NCBI GenBank assembly: GCA_964372205.1
Contig: CAYJQB010000001.1
Span: 551,699-615,698 of the forward strand
Reading direction: 5' to 3'
Length of the DNA: 64,000 nt
Source of the DNA: Candidatus Woesearchaeota archaeon
GTDB taxonomy: Archaea; Nanobdellota; Nanobdellia; Pacearchaeales; GW2011-AR1
How positions within the stretch are numbered: the stretch's first letter is position 1; every line of letters starts with the position of its first letter. Positions 1,657 to 60,500 of the stretch are shown piece after piece. Position numbers and translations under genes: made by a program. The notes beneath the pieces are model-generated. The model was not told the DNA's origin. It worked only from the letters and a program-made list of their open reading frames with translations, and made no database searches.

Positions 1657-2649
1657 TCAATCATGCCTGCAAGACCTATTAACAATTTTATATTTTAAGT
1701 GGACTCTCTTAGCGCAGACTGAAAGAGCCTCACCTAGTTCTCTTTCTCCTATATCTCCAATAACTTCAAGTTTCTCCCCCTTCTTACCGTGGTTATTCTT
1801 TTCTACCTTAACTCTTATTCCATCTCTGTTCCCTCTTCTCCCTATATTCCTAAGAGCTTTAGCAGTAGAATAAACTGCCCCAGGTTGATCAACATCCGTA
1901 AGAAATACATCGTAAGCTCTGTTCTTAGCTAGTTCAGTCTCTAATCTTTCAGCGGAAGCCAGAACTCTAGAACCTATGTACTCTGTAAACAACCTCTCCG
2001 ACTCAGAAGGTTGAAATGCTGTACTCTTAGAAGCATATCTATCGGACAATGCTCCTCTAAGAAGATTAAAATACAATTCGCTATCTGTAAGAGGAATTAT
2101 AGCTGGAGGGTGTCCCGTCCTAGCTAAACAAAAGTTTTGCAACAATTGGGCAGCCCTTTTATTTCCGTCAGTATATGGATGAATTCTGACTAAATCAAGA
2201 TGTGCCGCAGAGGCTCTCAAAACAGAATGTATATCTGGAACATTCAAAAAACCAACAAGATTATCAATTCCCTGATAGACCTCAGATGGCCCGGGCGGAG
2301 CGAATCCAAAAACTTGAACTTCTCGAGTCCTAAACCCTCCATGATTTTTCTCTGGCAACAATATCTCACCAAGTTTAGAAAGAGAATAAATGTCTATTCC
2401 ATTTCTAGCCAAAATATCCCAGGCGTTGCTTAATCTTGACCTAATCTGAGGCTCGCTTAACTCAAAAATTTCCTTATCTTCTTTTGGAATGCCTCTAGGA
2501 TCCATAACTCTCGTGAACTCAAGAAAATAAGATTCTCTGCCTGCCTCTTCCCTTAAAGCTCTAGTAAATTCTTTATAAACACATTTAGAATACTCCGGAT
2601 GAGTGTTTATTCTTCCAACTACTTGGTCTATTCTCCTTAATATGTCCAT
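1657..2649 (-). CDS. Fic/Doc family protein
   Basis: Fic-like motif HPYTDGNKRAAQ, preceded by GGFRTREV. Confidence 0.85.
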   Translation of the reverse strand: MDILRRIDQVVGRINTHPEYSKCVYKEFTRALREEAGRESYFLEFTRVMDPRGIPKEDKEIFELSEPQIRSRLSNAWDILARNGIDIYSLSKLGEILLPEKNHGGFRTREVQVFGFAPPGPSEVYQGIDNLVGFLNVPDIHSVLRASAAHLDLVRIHPYTDGNKRAAQLLQNFCLARTGHPPAIIPLTDSELYFNLLRGALSDRYASKSTAFQPSESERLFTEYIGSRVLASAERLETELAKNRAYDVFLTDVDQPGAVYSTAKALRNIGRRGNRDGIRVKVEKNNHGKKGEKLEVIGDIGERELGEALSVCAKRVHLKYKIVNRSCRHD

Positions 2650-2723
2650 AAAAATTCCACTCAGAAACTGTATTTAAACCTTTCTTTTTTGTAACTCCCA
2701 TTAAGTTACTACATTAAACAAGT

Positions 2724-3089
2724 TTATCTTGCTTGCTTTGCAAAAGGAAAATAAGTGTTAAACTCTGAAGTTCCTCTATGAAAATAATCAATTTGAGCTC
2801 TGCTTCCCGAATCCCTTCCATTTGGACTTATAGTTAAGTCATCAACCGGAGCCTCTACCTTGCAGATCTTATGATTTCCATCCATGCCTATCATAACAAC
2901 TCTTCCGCCTCCAATATGTGAAATATATGCATTTCCTGAGAATCTACTGCCTGATGTAGAGCTTGCCGATACTGCATAGACTTCTCCAACTCGCACTGGT
3001 GGACTTCCAACCCCTTCACGAACTTGAGCTGCAGTAGCCATTGGCGTAGGTCTTGAATTCTTATGAGGATTAAATTTTTGTTTGCCCAT
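2724..3089 (-). CDS. hypothetical protein
   Basis: ORF; start moved to MGKQK at 3089; no recognisable motif. Confidence 0.5.
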   Translation of the reverse strand: MGKQKFNPHKNSRPTPMATAAQVREGVGSPPVRVGEVYAVSASSTSGSRFSGNAYISHIGGGRVVMIGMDGNHKICKVEAPVDDLTISPNGRDSGSRAQIDYFHRGTSEFNTYFPFAKQAR

Positions 3090-6783: not shown

Positions 6784-7662
6784 ATGAGAAAAATGCCTAG
6801 ATTTGCAAAAGGACTTGCAGTTGGACTTGCCACAGGAGCAGGATTTGGATACGCATTTATTAGTCCAAGTTCTCCAATTTCGTTATTCAATAACCCAACT
6901 ACAGAAGAACAGTTTCGAGATATAAAAGCACTGATTTATGATATTCGAGATATAAAAGCACGGATTCAACAACATAATTTAGAAACTTTAGCTAATACTT
7001 CCGGAGAGAATCGACCAGAGGTTATTCCTTCTCTTGATAATATAGAATTACAAACTAAAACAATAAGCATTCTTGACTTAATAGCTGAAGAAAGAGTTCC
7101 AATAGCTGTATTTTCAGGCATAGATTATAATCAAGATGGAAAGTGGGATGCTTTCGGAATTTTTAGCACGATATCCAGACCAGACTATTTCCCAGATATG
7201 GACACAATAAAGGATAAAATAATATTAGATAATTACCCAAGAGAAACAATTGTTCACCTAACTAAAAATATTCCTTATGATATCTTGCTAAACGAAACAC
7301 AAAGAGAAGATATTAGAGTAGAAGCAAACAAAGAATACTACTCCCAAATAACCTCTCCATTCATAGAAGGAAGAGAAGGAGTTGATTTTTATATTAGAAG
7401 AGAATTCAAAGACACATATGACAGTTCTGAAGAGATTAGAAAATCAATGGAAGAAGCTGGTTTGAAAGGACCATTTAGAACTATGACTGAAGCTGAAGCT
7501 GAAGCGTTAGACACACAAGGAAAAAAATATCTTCTGCCTGCAGAACATTTCATTGCAGCCGTAGAATCTGGAAGAGCCGGAATCGTCCTAGACGCAATTA
7601 GCACTAATTATCCAAACTGGAATAATTATAAAGAAGAAAAAGTTAAAGAAATTCAAAAGTAA
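6784..7662 (+). CDS. hypothetical protein with N-terminal membrane anchor
   Basis: 292-aa ORF with hydrophobic N-terminus and an AT-rich promoter-like region upstream. Confidence 0.7.
   Translation: MRKMPRFAKGLAVGLATGAGFGYAFISPSSPISLFNNPTTEEQFRDIKALIYDIRDIKARIQQHNLETLANTSGENRPEVIPSLDNIELQTKTISILDLIAEERVPIAVFSGIDYNQDGKWDAFGIFSTISRPDYFPDMDTIKDKIILDNYPRETIVHLTKNIPYDILLNETQREDIRVEANKEYYSQITSPFIEGREGVDFYIRREFKDTYDSSEEIRKSMEEAGLKGPFRTMTEAEAEALDTQGKKYLLPAEHFIAAVESGRAGIVLDAISTNYPNWNNYKEEKVKEIQK
6914..6961 (+). repeat. 18-bp direct repeat, period 30, in-frame within a CDS
   Basis: ttcgagatataaaagcac at 6914-6931 and 6944-6961 (RDIKA twice). Confidence 0.85.
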
Positions 7663-9605: not shown

Positions 9606-9634
9606 AAAAGGCTAAAAGATATTATAAATCTTTA

Positions 9635-9707
9635 CGGGCCCAGGAGGAATCGAACCCCCATCACAGGATCCGAAGTCCCGTATTCTGATCCATTAAACTA
9701 TGGGCCC
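9635..9707 (-). tRNA. tRNA-Arg(TCG)
   Basis: Cloverleaf: GGGCCCA acceptor stem, anticodon loop CT-TCG-GA, GGTTCGATTCC T-arm; TATA-like box 22 nt upstream. Confidence 0.95.
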
Positions 9708-9775
9708 AAAAATAGCAGTATTTGAGAACTTTTAAACCTTGATAAGTTCTTTAAAATGGCTTTATATATAATATA

Positions 9776-23579: not shown

Positions 23580-24380
23580 TCAAATCCAGCCCCTCTTCCT
23601 TATGCCCTGATTATATATCTGGAAAATAAAACTTTTTTCAGCAAGACTTCTATGTTTTCTCAAATAAGCAACCCTTCTTCCTTTATCGTTCTCAATCTCG
23701 ATAAGGCATTTACTCCAATATTTCAATATGTCTCCTCCGACCATTCTTTTTTCATTATCCCAGCTGTAAATTTGATTTGTAACAAGAACAGGAATATTCT
23801 GTTTTCTGGCAATCTCTGCAAGAAGTCTCATCTGCCTAGTAAGTTCAGCATTCACTTTTTGTATATGCTGAATGTCTTTCTCCATTTTTCCATTTTCAAC
23901 ATCTTCAAGTTTCTTTTCCCGAGCATCAGCAAACTCAAGTCTATAAAGCATAGTCATCCCATCTACAATAATCAAGCTTATTTTATTGTTCAAATATTTC
24001 AATAGCTGGTCAAAAGCATCTTTCTGTTCCTTAAAACTTGTAGGTTTCAATAATAATATGTTCTCAAGCACTTTATCCAACTCCCCGTTCTCATTGTCAG
24101 CACCAATCAACTGCTTCACTCTTTCAGAAGAAAAGCCTCCTTCAGTATCTATAAATATCACTTTATTTCCTTTTTTAGCTTGTGAAACCGCTGCGCACAA
24201 ACAAAAGTTTGTTTTCCCACTTCCAGCCCCCCCATAAAAAGTTGTTATTATGTCAGAATCATACCCTCCATGAAGCCATCTGTTCAAGTCATAACTTCCG
24301 GCAGATAGCTTCCTGTTCCCTGGACTCCTAGAACCCGGAGAGGTTGTAGAGTCATAACTTCCGGCAGATAGCTTTACCAT
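23580..24380 (-). CDS. radB: DNA repair and recombination protein RadB, with a 21-aa duplication/insertion at the N-terminus
   Basis: Walker A GGAGSGKT, FIDTEGGFSSER, Walker B IIVDG, GGDILKYWSK and KHR motif; KLSAGSYD occurs twice. Confidence 0.93.
   Translation of the reverse strand: MVKLSAGSYDSTTSPGSRSPGNRKLSAGSYDLNRWLHGGYDSDIITTFYGGAGSGKTNFCLCAAVSQAKKGNKVIFIDTEGGFSSERVKQLIGADNENGELDKVLENILLLKPTSFKEQKDAFDQLLKYLNNKISLIIVDGMTMLYRLEFADAREKKLEDVENGKMEKDIQHIQKVNAELTRQMRLLAEIARKQNIPVLVTNQIYSWDNEKRMVGGDILKYWSKCLIEIENDKGRRVAYLRKHRSLAEKSFIFQIYNQGIRKRGWI
24287..24374 (+). repeat. perfect 25-bp direct repeats flanking a 38-bp insert (period 63, in-frame)
   Basis: agtcataacttccggcagatagctt at 24287-24311 and 24350-24374. 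Confidence 0.97.
24312..24349 (+). mobile_element. putative mini-element, copy C (insert in radB)
   Basis: Core ctggactcctagaacccggagaggttgta (24320-24348) matches 57513-57542 at 26 of 30 aligned positions; mobility is inferred. Confidence 0.6.
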
Positions 24381-48362: not shown

Positions 48363-48430
48363 CTAACCACTACAAGAACTGGATATTTAAACATTTAGGC
48401 ACTACTTAAAACGTTCGAATCCTTTATCAA

Positions 48431-48502
48431 AGCGCGGAGAGGGATTCGAACCCCCGCATGGAAGCTCTGCAGGCTTCTGCCTTACCACTTGGCTATCCGC
48501 GC
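48431..48502 (-). tRNA. tRNA-Cys(GCA)
   Basis: Anticodon arm GAAGC-CT GCA GA-GCTTC; U73 discriminator. Confidence 0.95.
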
Positions 48503-48578
48503 TTAAACAATCAAACAAGAAACGACTTATAAATATTTACAAACAAACATTCATAAACTCCAATTCTTACAAATTCCC

Positions 48579-49010: not shown

Positions 49011-49011
49011 A

Positions 49012-49086
49012 CGGCCCCGACAGGATTTGAACCTGCGACCCTCAGATTAGAAGTCTGATGCTCTATCCAGGCTGAGCTACGGGGCC
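49012..49086 (-). tRNA. tRNA-Arg(TCT)
   Basis: Anticodon arm TCAGA-CT TCT AA-TCTGA; GGCCCCG acceptor stem. Confidence 0.95.
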
Positions 49087-49122
49087 ACCCATTAATCAAA
49101 AAAAATTGTTATTTAAAACTTC

Positions 49123-56352: not shown

Positions 56353-57291
56353 ATGAGCTATGTAAAAAGATGCCCTGAATGTGACAGCATAAACTTAACA
56401 TATGATGACCAGAAAGGGGAAATCGTCTGTAATGACTGTGGACTTATCATTGAAGAAAAGATGGTTGATGCTGGACAAGAGACCGGCGGACAATTCGATA
56501 AGTCTGAGAAAAAAGGACGAGGGGGAGCACCACTTTCTATTCAAAAATTCGATAAAGGTTTAACAACTAACGTCGGAGAAATCTCAGACATATACAAGCT
56601 AGAATCTGGCCAAACTCGTAAATTCCTCAGACTGAAAAAATGGCAGGAAAGAGTTTCCACTTCTATTGAAAGAAATTTGAGGCTTGCTATGGCGGAATTA
56701 AGAAGAGAAACAAGCTTCCTTAATCTCCCATCAGTTGTAAGAGATGAAGCAGCAAGAGTTTACAATTTTGTCCTTCAAAGAGGTTTAGTCAGAGGAAGAA
56801 GCATGGAATCAGTCATAGCAGCCTGTATTTATGCAGCTTGTCGTTCATATAATATTCCAAGAACTCTAGACGAAATTGCAGCAACTTCTGATGTCCCAAG
56901 AAAAGAGATAGGCAGAACTTATAGATTTATGATAAGAAAGCTTGGCATTAAAGTAAAACCTTCCTCTCCAAAAGACTATATCTCTAGATTTGCTTCAATC
57001 TTACATCTCTCTCCTAAATCTCAAAATGAAGCCCTTAAAATTCTAAAGAAAGCAGATGTTTCAGAACTTACTTCAGGAAGAGGTCCTGCAGGAATAGCTG
57101 CCGCAGCATTGTACGTTGCTGCCCTCATAAACAATGAGAAAAAAACCCAAAGAGAAGTTGCAGACGTAGCAGGTATAACTGAAGTCACAATAAGAAACAG
57201 ATACAAAGAACTCATAGACAAGCTAGGTATAGAAGACAAACTTAAAGAAATAGAAACCAAGAATAAAGCAGAGAAAAAAGTATCTGCATAA
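56353..57291 (+). CDS. tfb: transcription initiation factor IIB
   Basis: CPEC...CNDCG zinc ribbon; two cyclin repeats; TEVTIRNRYKEL. Confidence 0.97.
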   Translation: MSYVKRCPECDSINLTYDDQKGEIVCNDCGLIIEEKMVDAGQETGGQFDKSEKKGRGGAPLSIQKFDKGLTTNVGEISDIYKLESGQTRKFLRLKKWQERVSTSIERNLRLAMAELRRETSFLNLPSVVRDEAARVYNFVLQRGLVRGRSMESVIAACIYAACRSYNIPRTLDEIAATSDVPRKEIGRTYRFMIRKLGIKVKPSSPKDYISRFASILHLSPKSQNEALKILKKADVSELTSGRGPAGIAAAALYVAALINNEKKTQREVADVAGITEVTIRNRYKELIDKLGIEDKLKEIETKNKAEKKVSA

Positions 57292-57313
57292 GAATTCTAC
57301 ATAATTCACAACA

Positions 57314-57320
57314 TTTAAAA
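57314..57320 (+). promoter_or_regulatory. probable TATA box of tRNA-Leu
   Basis: tttaaaa, matching the boxes upstream of the other four tRNAs, but 68 nt from the tRNA instead of 21-24 nt. Confidence 0.6.
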
Positions 57321-57352
57321 CACTTCCAATTTTAGTCTCTTTAACTCTAGAG

Positions 57353-57387
57353 GGTTGCTGAACTCATAGAACTCACTAGAAGTTGTA
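57353..57387 (+). repeat. mini-element, copy A (tRNA-Leu leader)
   Basis: ggttgctgaactcatagaactcactagaagttgta; 30/35 identical to copy B. Confidence 0.85.
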
Positions 57388-57388
57388 A

Positions 57389-57473
57389 GCGGGGATGCCG
57401 GAGTGGTCAAACGGGCTGGATTTAGGCTCCAGTGTGCTTAGTGCCTACCTAGGTTCGAATCCTAGTCCCCGCA
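57389..57473 (+). tRNA. tRNA-Leu(TAG)
   Basis: GCGGGGA acceptor stem, CTGGA-TT TAG GC-TCCAG anticodon arm, long variable arm, A73. Confidence 0.95.
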
Positions 57474-57474
57474 T

Positions 57475-57491
57475 GTGAATCAAAGATTCAC
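57475..57491. other. perfect 7-bp hairpin directly after tRNA-Leu
   Basis: gtgaatc-aaa-gattcac; function unknown. Confidence 0.6.
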
Positions 57492-57507
57492 TATCTGTAG
57501 GACTCGT

Positions 57508-57542
57508 GGTTGCTGGACTCATAGAACCCGCTGGAGGTTGTA
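57508..57542 (+). mobile_element. putative mini-element, copy B
   Basis: ggttgctggactcatagaacccgctggaggttgta, 1 nt before the duplicated tRNA 3' end; mobility is inferred. Confidence 0.6.
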
Positions 57543-57588
57543 TAATCCTAGTCCCCGCATTTCTAATCTAATTCAGAATCTTTTATTA

Positions 57589-60500
57589 CTAGTATATCGA
57601 AATAATACCAGTAGTGCCCTCATCTATAGGAGCAATGTCAACCTTCTTCCCATCTAATTCATCCAAGATTTCTCTATTCTTATCAGAAATTGAATCGAAG
57701 AAGTTTATTTTATTTATAACAAGAGCCGTAGACACACTGCTTGTCCGGGCTACGGGTCCTTTTCTCACTCCACTCTCTCCCACAAAAACAGGGTTCTCAT
57801 TTGTCCCCTCAAGGTTCACCATATAGAAATCAGTAGCTTCATTGTTCCTATATATCACATAAACTTGTCTTCCTGACAGACTAGGATGCTCCTCCAATTT
57901 AAAGTAAAATTCGGGCTCTTGATTTACAACAGTATCATTGATGTCTTCTTCGACAACATTTTCATTTTCATCCCCAACCGTTTCAGGACTAGTTTCAGGA
58001 GGAGTGATTTTTTCAGCAACAGGAAGCTCTCTATAGACAATTATCTCTTTCACCATGGCTTCTATAAGTCTTACATTTGCCTTCTGATAATTAAGGAAGA
58101 ATCCTAAAAAGTTGTTTTCAATATCCTGGACAAGTCTATCAGCTTTAGTTCTATCATAGTTCTTCTCAAGCTCATCTTTCTGTTTCTCAAATTCATCTAT
58201 TTTACTTATAGATTCATCCTTCCCGTATATTTCTCCTCTTTCAATCAGGTAATCCTGTTGTCTTTCTTCTAGTTCACTTAAAGTAGCATTCTTCACAGCA
58301 ATATTGTTTGTAGTGATAGCATTATCTACGCTATTTTTATCAAGCCAGCACCTTGTCTGCTGATTTCCACAATATCCTACATCAACAAATCTGAATGCCT
58401 CTGTTCCAGCTCCAGGATTAGAAGTTGCACATATCCTTACAATACCTCTGTTATAGATTGCAGGATTTAATGCTTCTTCAGCCCCAGCTTGAATATTTGG
58501 ATTAAGCAACGCAGCTGGGTTTGTGCTTCCAGAAATACATTCTTCAGCTGACGTAACTGTTTGCTCTGTAAGACTTCCCTCAACCGCTTTGTCACTCAAA
58601 TAATCCAAGGCAAAGCTACTAGTCACTTGCTTAAATCCACACTCTTCTTTCCCGTTTATCATAACGCAAAGCTGTTGGTATCCCTCTGGAGCTGTGAAGT
58701 CCATACTCTCTGTTTTGAACTCTCCTCTGCCAATGAACCCAGAATCAACCTGTATTCTAGATGGCACAGAATAGAACTCTTCTTGAGGAGGGTCTTTCAA
58801 ATAAACGCTAAATGCCACTCCCTGATTCTCGCCAGCAAATATATGATAGAACACTTTGTACTGAGAAGTTGCTGGAACAGTCACATCCGTGAATGTTGTC
58901 GAACTAAACCAAGCATGGAACTGAGGAGGACTATCCGGAGCAACAAGAGTCTCAAAATCTGTAGGCACGCTTACTGAAACGAAAGCTCTACAGAACTCTG
59001 TTCCAGCTTCTTCGAGAGATCTCGCTTGGAATGCTTCAAATGAATTGACAGCATAAGTCTGTGTAAAGTAGTCTATAGACTCGTCGGTATTATCAAAAGC
59101 TGCTTGAACAGATGAGTACTCTCCTCCTCCTCGTACGCCTCTTCCAAATCCATTATAAGAGCCACTTACAAGTCTTGGCAATACCTCCTTAGCAACAGGA
59201 GTTATCTGTCTCCAGAAAAAGTCACACATGTAAACAGAGCTTATCTGATCGCAGATTCCAATTTGATTTCCAGTCTCCAAACTTTCAATAAGACATTGTT
59301 GATGAGACTCTAATATTGAAACATAGCCATCAATTCCAGATTTAATGCCTGTAAGGCATACGGGAATGATTACTCCTTCTCTGATATTAGGCAAACAAAG
59401 CAATGCACTTCCAACAATTCCTGTCTGTACAACATCTGCAACAGGCCATTCTCCTCCAAGATCACATCTACTTGCAGGACAAATTACAGGATCACAGACA
59501 TTGAATAACACCTGACAATCGCTGACACTCATAAAATCCTGACATTGTGGAGAGTCGTAATGAGAATATGTTGTGCTCTGGTCAAACACATCTCCAAATA
59601 TATTAACCAACTTATTCCCTCTCTGTGAATTTGCTTCTCTCAACGCAGTTCTAGACCTCTCAACCAATTTTTGAGATTGACTTTCCCCTAATCCAAGAAC
59701 TGGAATATTTGCAGCTGTCTGAGAGAATATTATCTGACACTCATCCCCAGTATCTACTCTTCCGTCAGTTCCAACATTGCATATCTGCCAACTGTTTACA
59801 GCTCCTGAACTATCATATGCAGGTATTTCCGTTCCAAGACTTACAACTCTAGCATACCACCCGTTATCTACATCAAAAGGCACAACAGCAGCCATTCCTT
59901 TATCAGGACCAGTGCCAAAATATCTCACAACTCTATCAGCCGGAGCTATCTGATTGCTAAATGAACCAGCTTCCTCTCTAAACCACCCCAATCTATTATC
60001 CTTCAGAAACTGTTCAGCTCCCTGAACTTCAGAATATCCTTCGACTTCTGTAAGTCTTATCTCATTAACAGGATTCCCTATCTCCTCATACTTGTACAAT
60101 GCTGTAGGATTTCTCATCTCCCCTTTGACAACCTCTCCAACAACTAAGAATGAATCAGCTCTTTCAGCAGAGTTCTCCCCCTCCCCCTCTACAACCACTC
60201 CTTCAACATAAACAGCTTTCTGTCCCTCTTGAAGATTTCCACCAGTTACCTTTATTCCGTCAAGATTTCCAGAACTGTACTCTAAGAACTTTCCTGCTTT
60301 TGCAACACCATAATCCCTTGTTGGAGCAACAATCCCATATTTCTTTAATCCGTTTGCATTTTCACTAGCAAGCCTATCATCATAAAACTCTTTATTGACT
60401 TCAATTCTATCTTTTACTCTATTGAGCTCCAAAGAAACATCAGCACCACTATTCTTTTCCAATTCAAGATTGTAAGCCAGCTCTCTCAAATCGTTCTGAG

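What the first reader, a model, noticed from the sequence alone, without database searches (positions are those of the whole stretch)
57314..57388. tRNA-Leu has a ~45-nt longer leader that contains the element and ends at the RNase P site
The other four tRNAs have a TATA-like box 21-24 nt upstream (9730, 43974, 48526, 49111); for tRNA-Leu it is 68 nt away (57314-57320). The extra sequence contains copy A, whose GTTGTA-A end abuts the mature tRNA 5' end. 5' processing would release a small RNA with the same 3' end seen in the inserted copies, making this locus a candidate source. Four of the five A/B differences are A versus G. That fits either A-biased RT errors or, more simply, ordinary transition drift.
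Basis: partly seen in the sequence, partly recalled or inferred. Interest (0 to 1): 0.7.

Follow-up and report, generated by a model that had tools for sequence, protein, structure and literature searches.

The report
Decayed mobile hairpin in tRNA-Leu leader
The unusually long leader of this archaeal tRNA-Leu gene is real, but it is a worn-out inserted copy of a small hairpin repeat found in many archaeal groups, not the source of that repeat.

Summary
In this 0.8-Mb Pacearchaeota-like genome, most tRNA genes have a TTTAAA box ending 21-29 nt before the tRNA. In tRNA-Leu(TAG) the box ends 68 nt before it. The extra 44 nt (57345-57388) carry copy A of a ~36-nt element, and its end lies one base before tRNA +1.

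The "source locus" reading does not hold.
- Copy A differs from copy B at five positions, all G:C to A:T. It scores 15 bits on the family model; B scores 50.
- A same-genus genome has the short leader and no element.
- B is 100% identical to a copy in another genus.
- No reverse transcriptase was detected.

The element ("E") has a 5' box GGTTGCTGGA, a 9-bp covarying stem and a 7-nt loop CGCTGGA that overlaps a GGAGG. Copies occur in several DPANN phyla and in DHVE2 genomes. They sit just before start codons, in tandem arrays, and at tRNA leaders, intron edges and T-loops. Target duplications run from about 8 to 25 nt.

All seven copies in this genome lie on one DNA strand, whatever the host gene's orientation. 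I read E as a non-autonomous, DNA-level mobile hairpin that survives where RNase P, RNase Z, splicing or its own ribosome-binding site neutralise it. The enzyme that moves it is unknown.

The parts
57314..57320 (+). TATA-like box (TTTAAAA), the presumed promoter of tRNA-Leu(TAG)
   Evidence: Read directly. The same box type ends 21-29 nt before most tRNAs of this genome. Promoter function is inferred.
57321..57344 (+). Likely ancestral 24-nt spacer between the box and the former start site
   Evidence: Same-genus G001 has exactly 24 nt between the box and tRNA +1. G002's first ~24 nt after its box resemble this stretch. Inference.
57345..57388 (+). The 44 extra leader bases, inserted relative to G001; contains copy A
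   Evidence: 68 nt here minus the usual 24 nt. The stretch is absent from G001 and from all 40 relatives searched.
57353..57387 (+). Element copy A, degenerate. Stem 57367-57373 pairs with 57381-57387; loop 57374-57380 reads CACTAGA instead of CGCTGGA
   Evidence: CM score 15.1 bits, E 0.24. The closing pair changed from C-G to T-A, which is compensatory.
57389..57473 (+). tRNA-Leu(TAG)
   Evidence: ARAGORN; Rfam RF00005, 58.4 bits.
57458..57474 (+). Direct repeat copy 1: T-loop A58 to the tRNA 3' end plus one base (AATCCTAGTCCCCGCAT)
57475..57543 (+). 69-nt insert behind the tRNA. It holds a left hairpin (GTGAATC-AAA-GATTCAC, 57475-57491), a linker, and canonical copy B (57508-57543; stem 57521-57528 with 57536-57543, loop CGCTGGA 57529-57535)
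   Evidence: CM score 50.5 bits, E 1e-10. Absent from G001.
57544..57560 (+). Direct repeat copy 2, the displaced duplicate of the tRNA 3' end
24287..24374 (+). Third window copy, sub-family 2: a 38-nt insert (24312-24349, CCTGTTCCCTGGACTCCTAGAACCCGGAGAGGTTGTAG) between perfect 25-nt direct repeats (24287-24311 and 24350-24374). It is antisense to, and in frame with, the 5' end of the radB-like ORF on the minus strand
   Evidence: The copy is 100% identical over 35 nt to a copy in G002.

Best explanation
The extra ~44 nt of the tRNA-Leu(TAG) leader is an old, decaying insertion of a small non-autonomous hairpin element ('E', 36-40 nt). It landed exactly between the promoter-defined start site and tRNA +1.

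Transcription from the TTTAAAA box (57314-57320) should now start near 57343-57347 and give a ~43-46-nt leader. RNase P would remove that leader, so the insertion is harmless. These steps are inferred.

E belongs to a family spread over several archaeal phyla. It has:
- a 5' box GGTTGCTGGA;
- a 9-bp stem whose outer five pairs covary;
- a 7-nt loop CGCTGGA that, with the stem, contains a GGAGG ribosome-binding sequence;
- a precise right end that abuts the target.

E spreads at the DNA level and in a strand-specific way, leaving target duplications of variable length (about 8-25 nt). The host or trans-acting enzyme is not identified.

Copies persist where the cell neutralises them:
- in tRNA leaders (RNase P);
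- behind a regenerated tRNA 3' end (RNase Z);
- at the edges of tRNA introns (splicing endonuclease);
- directly in front of start codons of otherwise leaderless genes, where E supplies the ribosome-binding site.

Copy A is one such survivor, not the master copy.
For: Leader anomaly and its rarity.

Empty site in G001, and an independent different insertion at the same +1 junction in G002.

A is degenerate and B canonical. B is identical to a copy in another genus.

Family-wide hairpin: 53 distinct copies, 91% of cells paired, 87 double-change cells against 27+-6 in shuffles, and 30-54% paired when partners are slid.

Distribution: the exact pattern occurs in more than 119 stretches from genomes labelled Pace-, Woese-, Nano-, Aenigmat-, Iain-, Parv- and Altiarchaeota, DHVE2, Bathy- and Hydrothermarchaeota. 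Two DHVE2 genomes hold 15-22 copies each on many contigs.

Context:
- 35 of 88 copies have a >=60-aa ORF start 2-16 nt downstream in sense orientation, against 5 of 88 antisense and 9.8% of random positions.
- 32 of 135 lie in or next to ARAGORN-predicted tRNAs.
- In introns, E is flush with the 3' splice site when sense and with the 5' splice site when antisense.

Clean insertions with duplications of 25 nt (radB), 11 nt (G002) and 16-23 nt (tRNA 3' ends).

Strand evidence: all 7 copies in this genome are on the + strand of a contig with uniform strand asymmetry, whatever the host gene's orientation. In 97 foreign loci, E orientation goes with negative local GC skew 62:35, p = 0.008.

No reverse transcriptase was detected.
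Against: No mobilising enzyme was found. The Y1 (IS200/IS605/RAYT) transposase family and Cas1 are absent from this genome and from most E-rich genomes. No E-like ends flank the Y1 genes that do exist.

Duplications of variable length are not what known cut-and-paste transposases give.

The exact abutment to RNA processing sites and start codons could reflect an RNA-level step or a function, rather than selection after random insertion.

G-T and A-C mismatches in the stem are about equal (14 vs 11). The covariation therefore cannot tell an RNA hairpin from a DNA palindrome.

The family alignment was collected with an exact-pattern search, so the 'invariant' boxes are partly invariant by construction. 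Variants such as GGTTGCAGGA and GCTGGTGG do exist.

Copy A kept its closing base pair through a double change, which hints at some constraint (chance about 0.14 by my own estimate).

The transcription start and RNase P processing are untested.
Confidence: 0.7

Rival explanations
1. First reader's model. The long leader is the master copy: RNase P releases a small RNA ending in GTTGTA-A, and this RNA is copied back into DNA, with A-biased errors, at new sites.
For: The right end of every copy is constant and abuts the target. Left ends and duplications vary, and some tandem arrays begin with a 5'-truncated unit. These features resemble retroposition.
Against: No RT domain was detected in the genome. 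A is the degenerate copy and B matches the consensus of other genera. No relative has the leader copy, and G001 has the empty site. Copies lie antisense to their host genes, and all seven sit on one DNA strand.
Confidence: 0.04
2. E, including copy A, is a functional cis-acting RNA: a leader or 5'-UTR hairpin that binds a conserved factor or the ribosome and controls translation or tRNA processing. Its many copies would reflect function rather than mobility.
For: There is strong covariation and a highly conserved loop and 5' box across phyla. The GGAGG sits 9-12 nt before start codons, and 40% of copies lie directly in front of ORFs in sense orientation. Copy A's closing pair changed in a compensatory way.
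Against: The downstream genes are unrelated (L11-like, recombinase-like, membrane proteins and others, by my reading). Copies also occur antisense in tRNA introns and inside a coding region. Presence or absence differs between congeners. Copy number is low, at 1-22 per genome. Copy A has lost the GGAGG and two loop bases. There is no Rfam match.
Confidence: 0.12
3. E is the conserved arm next to the attachment site of tRNA-targeting integrative elements. A tyrosine integrase recombines in the T-loop, and the 60-75-nt inserts are what remains after the cargo was deleted (mini cis-mobilisable elements). Copy A would be a secondary rearrangement.
For: The duplications behind tRNA-Leu, tRNA-His and other tRNAs run from the T-loop to the gene end, as in T-loop-type integration. 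E contains two direct GCTGGA motifs that could be arm-type sites. Earlier notes on this genome read similar tRNA-Lys and tRNA-Ser scars this way (unverified leads).
Against: Clean insertions occur at non-tRNA sites with unrelated duplicated sequences (radB 25 nt, an ORF start 11 nt). E also occurs at intron edges, before start codons and in spacer-less tandem arrays. No integrase gene is linked to these inserts, and viral contigs gave zero matches.
Confidence: 0.1
4. RNA-level joining. E RNA is ligated by the tRNA ligase to the ends produced by RNase P or the splicing endonuclease, and the chimeric RNA then templates DNA repair of the highly transcribed gene.
For: E's right end is flush (0-4 nt) with tRNA +1, with splice sites and with start points near start codons.
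Against: It needs antisense E RNA for half of the intron cases. No RT was detected. RNase P leaves a 5'-phosphate, which that ligase does not use (textbook knowledge). The duplications include unprocessed trailer bases. The single-strand bias of all copies fits DNA better than RNA.
Confidence: 0.06

Closest known systems
Bacterial REP/BIME elements (REPINs moved by RAYT, a Y1 HUH transposase)
   Same: Both are 35-40-nt imperfect palindromes with a conserved tag beside the stem. Both are non-coding, lie between genes and form mosaic clusters of variants (DHVE2 arrays). A strand bias suggests a single-strand DNA step.
   Different: The 5' tag is GGTTGCTGGA, not GTAG or CGTC. Copy number is low. 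E forms direct tandems, not inverted pairs. It leaves target duplications. No Y1 transposase is present in this genome or in most E-rich genomes. E is archaeal and occurs across phyla.
Rickettsia palindromic elements, and Correia-type miniature elements in Neisseria (from my own knowledge)
   Same: These are small hairpin repeats that insert in frame into genes or just upstream of them and alter expression signals. The radB insertion here adds 21 codons, and E donates a ribosome-binding site.
   Different: Those elements are 100-150 nt long, have terminal inverted repeats and leave fixed short duplications. E is a single ~38-nt hairpin with duplications of variable length.
Transposed tRNA introns of Thermoproteales (Fujishima et al. 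2010, Mol Biol Evol; recalled, not read here)
   Same: Related sequences are found in introns of different tRNAs and at different positions, which implies intron-associated mobility in archaea.
   Different: E is only part of the intron. It occurs in both orientations, always at an intron edge, and also outside tRNAs (5' UTRs, coding sequence, intergenic arrays).
tRNA-gene integration scars and cis-mobilisable elements
   Same: A duplicate of the tRNA 3' end, from the T-loop to the gene end, brackets the insert (copies B and C).
   Different: The insert is 60-75 nt and carries no integrase. The same element also inserts at non-tRNA sites with unrelated duplications.

Membership tests
REP/REPIN-RAYT | Short extragenic imperfect palindrome repeated in the genome | tested here: met
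   9-bp covarying stem with a 7-nt loop; 7 copies in this genome and up to 22 in others.
REP/REPIN-RAYT | Cognate Y1 (RAYT/TnpA) transposase gene in the genome | tested here: not met
   PF01797 is absent from G000 and from the DHVE2 genomes G317 and G324, and from G326, G321, G133 and G144. It is present in only 6 of the 24 genomes tested, one of them scored E-negative.
REP/REPIN-RAYT | GTAG or CGTC tag at the 5' foot; inverted REP pairs | tested here: not met
   The 5' box is GGTTGCTGGA, and arrays are head-to-tail.
IS200/IS605-derived miniature elements (PATE) | No target duplication; hairpins at both ends; related to the ends of a resident IS | tested here: not met
   Duplications of 11-25 nt; a single hairpin; no E-like sequence next to Y1 genes in L188-L191.
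tRNA-targeting integrative element (tyrosine integrase) | Direct repeat equal to the 3' part of the tRNA, flanking the element | tested here: met
   A 17-nt repeat flanks the insert with copy B; 16-20-nt repeats occur at tRNA-His and in other genomes.
tRNA-targeting integrative element (tyrosine integrase) | Integrase gene and cargo between the repeats; targets restricted to the attachment sequence | tested here: not met
   The insert is 69 nt and non-coding. The same element is inserted in radB and at ORF starts with unrelated duplications.
   PF00078 has no match in the 95%-complete genome; the control genomes gave matches.
   Copies in other genomes match B, not A. A is unique to this genome.
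Conserved cis-regulatory RNA motif (riboswitch or leader type) | Covarying structure | tested here: met
Conserved cis-regulatory RNA motif (riboswitch or leader type) | Constant position upstream of a coherent gene set, in one orientation relative to transcripts; a described family | tested here: not met
   The downstream genes are diverse. Antisense copies occur in tRNA introns and in coding sequence. No Rfam hit at E<=10.
Cas1-type (spacer-like or casposon-like) integration | Cas1 or casposase gene present | tested here: not met
   PF01867 is found in only 1 of 14 genomes tested and not in G000.

The most novel reading that the evidence does not exclude
E is an undescribed mobile hairpin shared by several archaeal phyla and moved by a conserved host activity rather than by its own transposase. 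It inserts strand-specifically at RNA-boundary sites: tRNA +1, loop or splice positions, and the start sites of leaderless genes. In doing so it lengthens or seeds tRNA introns, creates tRNA leaders, and turns leaderless genes into genes led by a ribosome-binding site. This would make it a general shaper of archaeal RNA-processing signals.
Probability: 0.3. Interest if true: 0.8.

Novelty: new variant of a known kind. Interest (0 to 1): 0.55.

Why it matters
For the tRNA itself the result is ordinary: a mobile-element remnant in a leader that RNase P can remove.

The element behind it is more interesting.
- A 36-40-nt hairpin with near-identical boxes occurs in several DPANN phyla and in DHVE2 archaea.
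- Its edge is flush with tRNA processing sites and start codons.
- It leaves duplications of variable length.
- It shows a single-strand bias.
- No recognisable transposase, reverse transcriptase or Cas1 accompanies it.

If this pattern is confirmed, it offers a testable route to three open questions: how archaeal tRNA introns grow and move, how leaderless genes acquire ribosome-binding leaders, and how tiny symbiont genomes tolerate mobile DNA by relying on RNA processing.

Tried and rejected
- Rfam scan of 57250-57650 at E<=10 found only the tRNA.
- Viral contig scan for the exact pattern gave 0 matches.
- Literature searches by sequence and by topic found no description of the element.
- Absence of RNase P (a Nanoarchaeum-like situation) is rejected: an RNase P RNA gene is present.
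- Single-sequence folds of the leader and the insert are not more stable than shuffles (z -0.3 to -1.5). The structural support comes from covariation only.
- Reverse transcriptase, Y1 transposase and Cas1 as mobilisers are each absent from this genome and poorly correlated with E.
- E as an end of resident IS200/IS605 copies found no support.
- No pairs of inverted E copies flanking a gene were seen in 100 loci. One 4.3-kb interval between two copies in a DHVE2 genome holds ordinary-looking ORFs (not run against any protein-family library).
- I considered C/D-box, K-turn, hammerhead, T-box-like, dif/ORB-like and CRISPR-repeat readings of the sequence by eye and dropped them for lack of the defining motifs. 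None was tested with a tool.
- G-U versus A-C counts could not tell an RNA hairpin from a DNA palindrome.

Full report
**1. The observation**

ARAGORN finds five tRNAs in the window, with tRNA-Leu(TAG) at 57389-57473 (Rfam tRNA 58.4 bits). Directly upstream lies GGTTGCTGAACTCATAGAACTCACTAGAAGTTGTA (copy A, 57353-57387), then one A, then tRNA +1.

A second copy (B, 57508-57542) lies downstream. A and B share 30 of 35 bases. The 20-nt core has 2 window matches against 0.02 expected.

The window is G000:C1:551699-615698 of an 814-kb, 95%-complete genome.

Across that genome, at least 27 of about 42 tRNA genes have a TTTAAA-type box ending 21-29 nt (mode 24) before the predicted 5' end. Their leaders must therefore be very short. 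Only tRNA-Leu(TAG), at 68-69 nt, and tRNA-Gly(GCC), at 53 nt, stand out. An RNase P RNA gene is present (105.9 bits), so a long leader can be processed. The start site and the cleavage are inferred.

**2. Copy A is an insertion, and a decayed one**

Two same-genus genomes keep the same upstream gene and the same tRNA.
- G001 has the box, 24 nt, then the tRNA. It has no element and no downstream insert.
- G002 has a 57-nt spacing filled by a different hairpin element (…GGGGAAACCTTGGTTTCCATAT). That element again ends exactly at tRNA +1. G002 also has a different insert with a 25-nt duplication behind the tRNA.

None of 40 relatives shows homology to the A leader. The 44 nt at 57345-57388 are therefore a lineage-specific insertion at a junction that was hit twice independently.

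A covariance model built from 53 diverse copies scores B at 50.5 bits (E 1e-10) but A at only 15.1 bits (E 0.24). All five A-specific bases are G:C to A:T changes. They hit the 5' box, the loop (two bases) and the closing pair. The closing-pair change (C-G to T-A) is compensatory; I estimate about a 0.14 chance of that happening by accident. A has also lost the GGAGG.

B is 100% identical over 36 nt to a copy behind tRNA-His in another genus. The consensus is therefore B-like and A is a worn copy. It cannot be the master.

**3. What the element is**

A BLAST search of 301 genomes of the order found it mainly in the window's own family. It often occurs in tandem arrays with a 47-54-nt period.

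An exact-pattern scan (GGTTGCTGGA-N8-13-CCCGCTGGAGGTT) of one genome per species hit more than 119 stretches. By record title these include Pace-, Woese-, Nano-, Aenigmat-, Iain-, Parv- and Altiarchaeota, DHVE2, Bathy- and Hydrothermarchaeota. Mis-binning cannot explain all of this, because two DHVE2 genomes carry 15 and 22 copies on many contigs. There, different variants lie back to back in mosaic clusters.

The structure is a 9-bp stem around a 7-nt loop.
- 91% of cells are paired.
- All five variable pairs change on both sides.
- There are 87 double-change cells against 27+-6 in shuffles.
- Only 30-54% are paired when partners are slid.

G-T (14) and A-C (11) mismatches are equally common. 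The covariation therefore does not say whether an RNA hairpin or a DNA palindrome is selected.

One caveat applies. The boxes are invariant partly by construction of the search, and variants (GGTTGCAGGA, GCTGGTGG) exist.

No Rfam family matches, viral contigs hold no match, and I found no paper describing the element.

**4. Where copies sit**

*Before genes.* Of 88 copies with enough flank, 35 have the start of a >=60-aa ORF 2-16 nt after the element in sense orientation. Only 5 do so on the other strand, and 9.8% of random positions do. The GGAGG is then 9-12 nt before the start codon. This lineage otherwise shows boxes about 22-25 nt before start codons, which suggests leaderless genes (my reading).

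*At tRNAs.* At least 32 of 135 copies are inside or beside ARAGORN-predicted tRNAs.
- Some lie in 5' leaders (for example a tRNA-His in L091).
- Some lie behind the tRNA, followed by a duplicate running from the T-loop to the gene end.
- Some lie inside the T-loop with a short duplication.
- Some lie in anticodon-loop introns in both orientations.

In introns the right end of E is flush with the 3' splice site when E is sense, and with the 5' splice site when E is antisense. By hand, two antisense cases (L097, L177) keep a 4-bp central helix with 3-nt bulges formed by the non-E part of the intron. E therefore looks like an addition to a small pre-existing intron. This is inference.

*In this genome.* Seven copies of three sub-families exist.

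| Copy | Position | Note |
|---|---|---|
| A | tRNA-Leu(TAG) leader | degenerate |
| B | behind tRNA-Leu(TAG) | canonical; 17-nt duplication |
| C | behind tRNA-His | about 16-nt duplication |
| radB copy | 5' end of the radB-like ORF | antisense, in frame; 25-nt duplication |
| Leu(TAA) copy | 3' edge of the intron | sense |
| Gly(CCC) copy | 5' edge of the intron | antisense |
| Gly(GCC) copy | the other long leader | likely relic, 3 nt from +1 |

Clean "target-element-target" events show duplications of 25 nt (radB) and 11 nt (G002, ATGAAAGATAA). The G002 event leaves a short upstream ORF whose stop overlaps the real start codon.

**5. How it spreads**

RNA-based spread is unlikely.
- No RT domain was detected.
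- Copies lie antisense to their hosts.
- All seven copies are on the + strand of contig C1, whatever the host gene's orientation (two-sided sign test 0.016).

That contig has a uniformly negative GC skew over 660 kb. After separating out the coding effect, the + strand keeps a skew of about -0.12. It therefore behaves as one replication arm. In 97 foreign loci, E orientation goes with negative local skew 62:35 (p = 0.008). This holds even though E is usually co-oriented with the downstream gene, which should push the skew the other way.

This points to a strand-specific DNA-level step, as is known for single-strand transposons.

The known enzymes of that kind are missing.
- The Y1 transposase family is absent here and in most E-rich genomes.
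- Y1 genes that do exist have no E at their ends.
- Cas1 is absent.

Duplications of 8-25 nt do not fit any standard transposase. The integrase-scar reading explains the tRNA 3' duplications but not the radB, ORF-start, intron-edge and array copies. I therefore commit to this: E is a non-autonomous DNA element, inserted strand-specifically by an unidentified (possibly host) activity, and then filtered by selection to places where RNA processing or its own ribosome-binding site makes it harmless.

**6. Verdict on the finding**

The long leader is real. It is rare in this genome and it ends at the RNase P site. It is a by-product of an element insertion, not the origin of the element.

In effect the mirror image is met: more than 100 genomes have dispersed copies and lack this leader, and a congener has the empty site.

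Earlier notes of this scan on the same genome (the tRNA-Leu duplication, the radB insertion, the dispersed mini-element, tRNA-Lys mini-inserts) agree with the local anatomy. I re-checked the first three myself. Those notes did not include the cross-phylum distribution, the covariation, the intron-edge copies or the strand bias.

Noticed in passing
whole contig G000:C1 (the window is part of it): GC skew is negative in every 10-kb bin over all 660 kb. After removing the coding-strand effect the + strand still has a skew of about -0.12, and 62% of long ORF length is on the minus strand. The contig looks like a single replication arm, which is odd for 81% of a genome.
   Followed up: partly
window 9634-9708, 44002-44075, 48430-48503, 49011-49087 and genome-wide: Most tRNA genes have a TTTAAA box ending 21-29 nt before the mature 5' end, so they are nearly leaderless as in Nanoarchaeum. 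Yet a good RNase P RNA gene is present at C1:146512-146866.
   Followed up: partly
G000:C1:341920-341977 (outside the window): tRNA-Gly(GCC) is the only other tRNA with a long leader (box 53 nt upstream). The leader ends ...CCTTTTCCAAAGGTTGTAGcaa|GCGG, probably a degenerate element copy 3 nt from +1.
   Followed up: partly
G000:C1:206632-206802 and C1:506412-506581 (outside the window): The 86-nt intron of tRNA-Leu(TAA) ends with, and the 98-nt intron of tRNA-Gly(CCC) begins with (antisense), a third sub-family: TGGAC(T)CCTAGAACCTTTTTCAAAGGTTGTAG. Here the conserved loop is replaced by a longer stem.
   Followed up: partly
window 24287-24374; locus L192 1440-1560: The radB-like gene carries the element antisense and in frame. 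The G002 orthologue has diverged codons at the same place (TTS-L-N-SRS-L-G-Q-R versus TTS-P-G-SRS-P-G-N-R), plus a second GGTTGTAG right at its start codon. Element-derived sequence seems to have been kept as an N-terminal extension.
   Followed up: partly
G000:C1:295280-295356 (tRNA-Lys) and 505406-505480 (tRNA-Ile); window about 48405-48429, downstream of tRNA-Cys: Several tRNAs are followed within 10 nt by an inverted copy of their own T-loop (GGATT(C/T)GAAC). For Lys and Ile this is followed by two hairpins and a 17-nt duplicate of the tRNA end, with no E. The same GATTCG(A/G) motif sits 3-4 nt to the left of E in some 5'-UTR copies of other genomes (L065, L066, L140, L158, L165).
   Followed up: partly
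L026 (G002) 400-470; L110, L147, L179: A second hairpin family, (A)AAGGA-N-GTCATA(A/G)G(A/G)(A/G)GAACC-TTGG-TTC..., fills the tRNA-Leu leader of G002 and lies next to E copies in other Pacearchaeota.
   Followed up: no
L194 (G002:C9, about 78254): An element insertion with an 11-nt duplication of the ORF start creates a 17-codon upstream ORF. Its TGA overlaps the real ATG (ATGA), which would couple the two translationally.
   Followed up: no
G317:C160 (DHVE2 genome): A Cas1 gene (2191-3003), possibly a casposase, lies 4 kb from a triple array of E variants (6944-7061). This genome has three Cas1 copies.
   Followed up: no
G000:C3:1-280 and C17:1700-1830: Contig C3 starts with a 52-53-nt tandem repeat (…AGGTTGTAATTCC(A)AAAGTCCCNTCAGGGACGATAGTATGGTAGCCCGCGGA). 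Contig C17 carries a tRNA-Thr with no archaeal box and a CACCGTT repeat upstream. The small contigs may be foreign or mis-binned.
   Followed up: no
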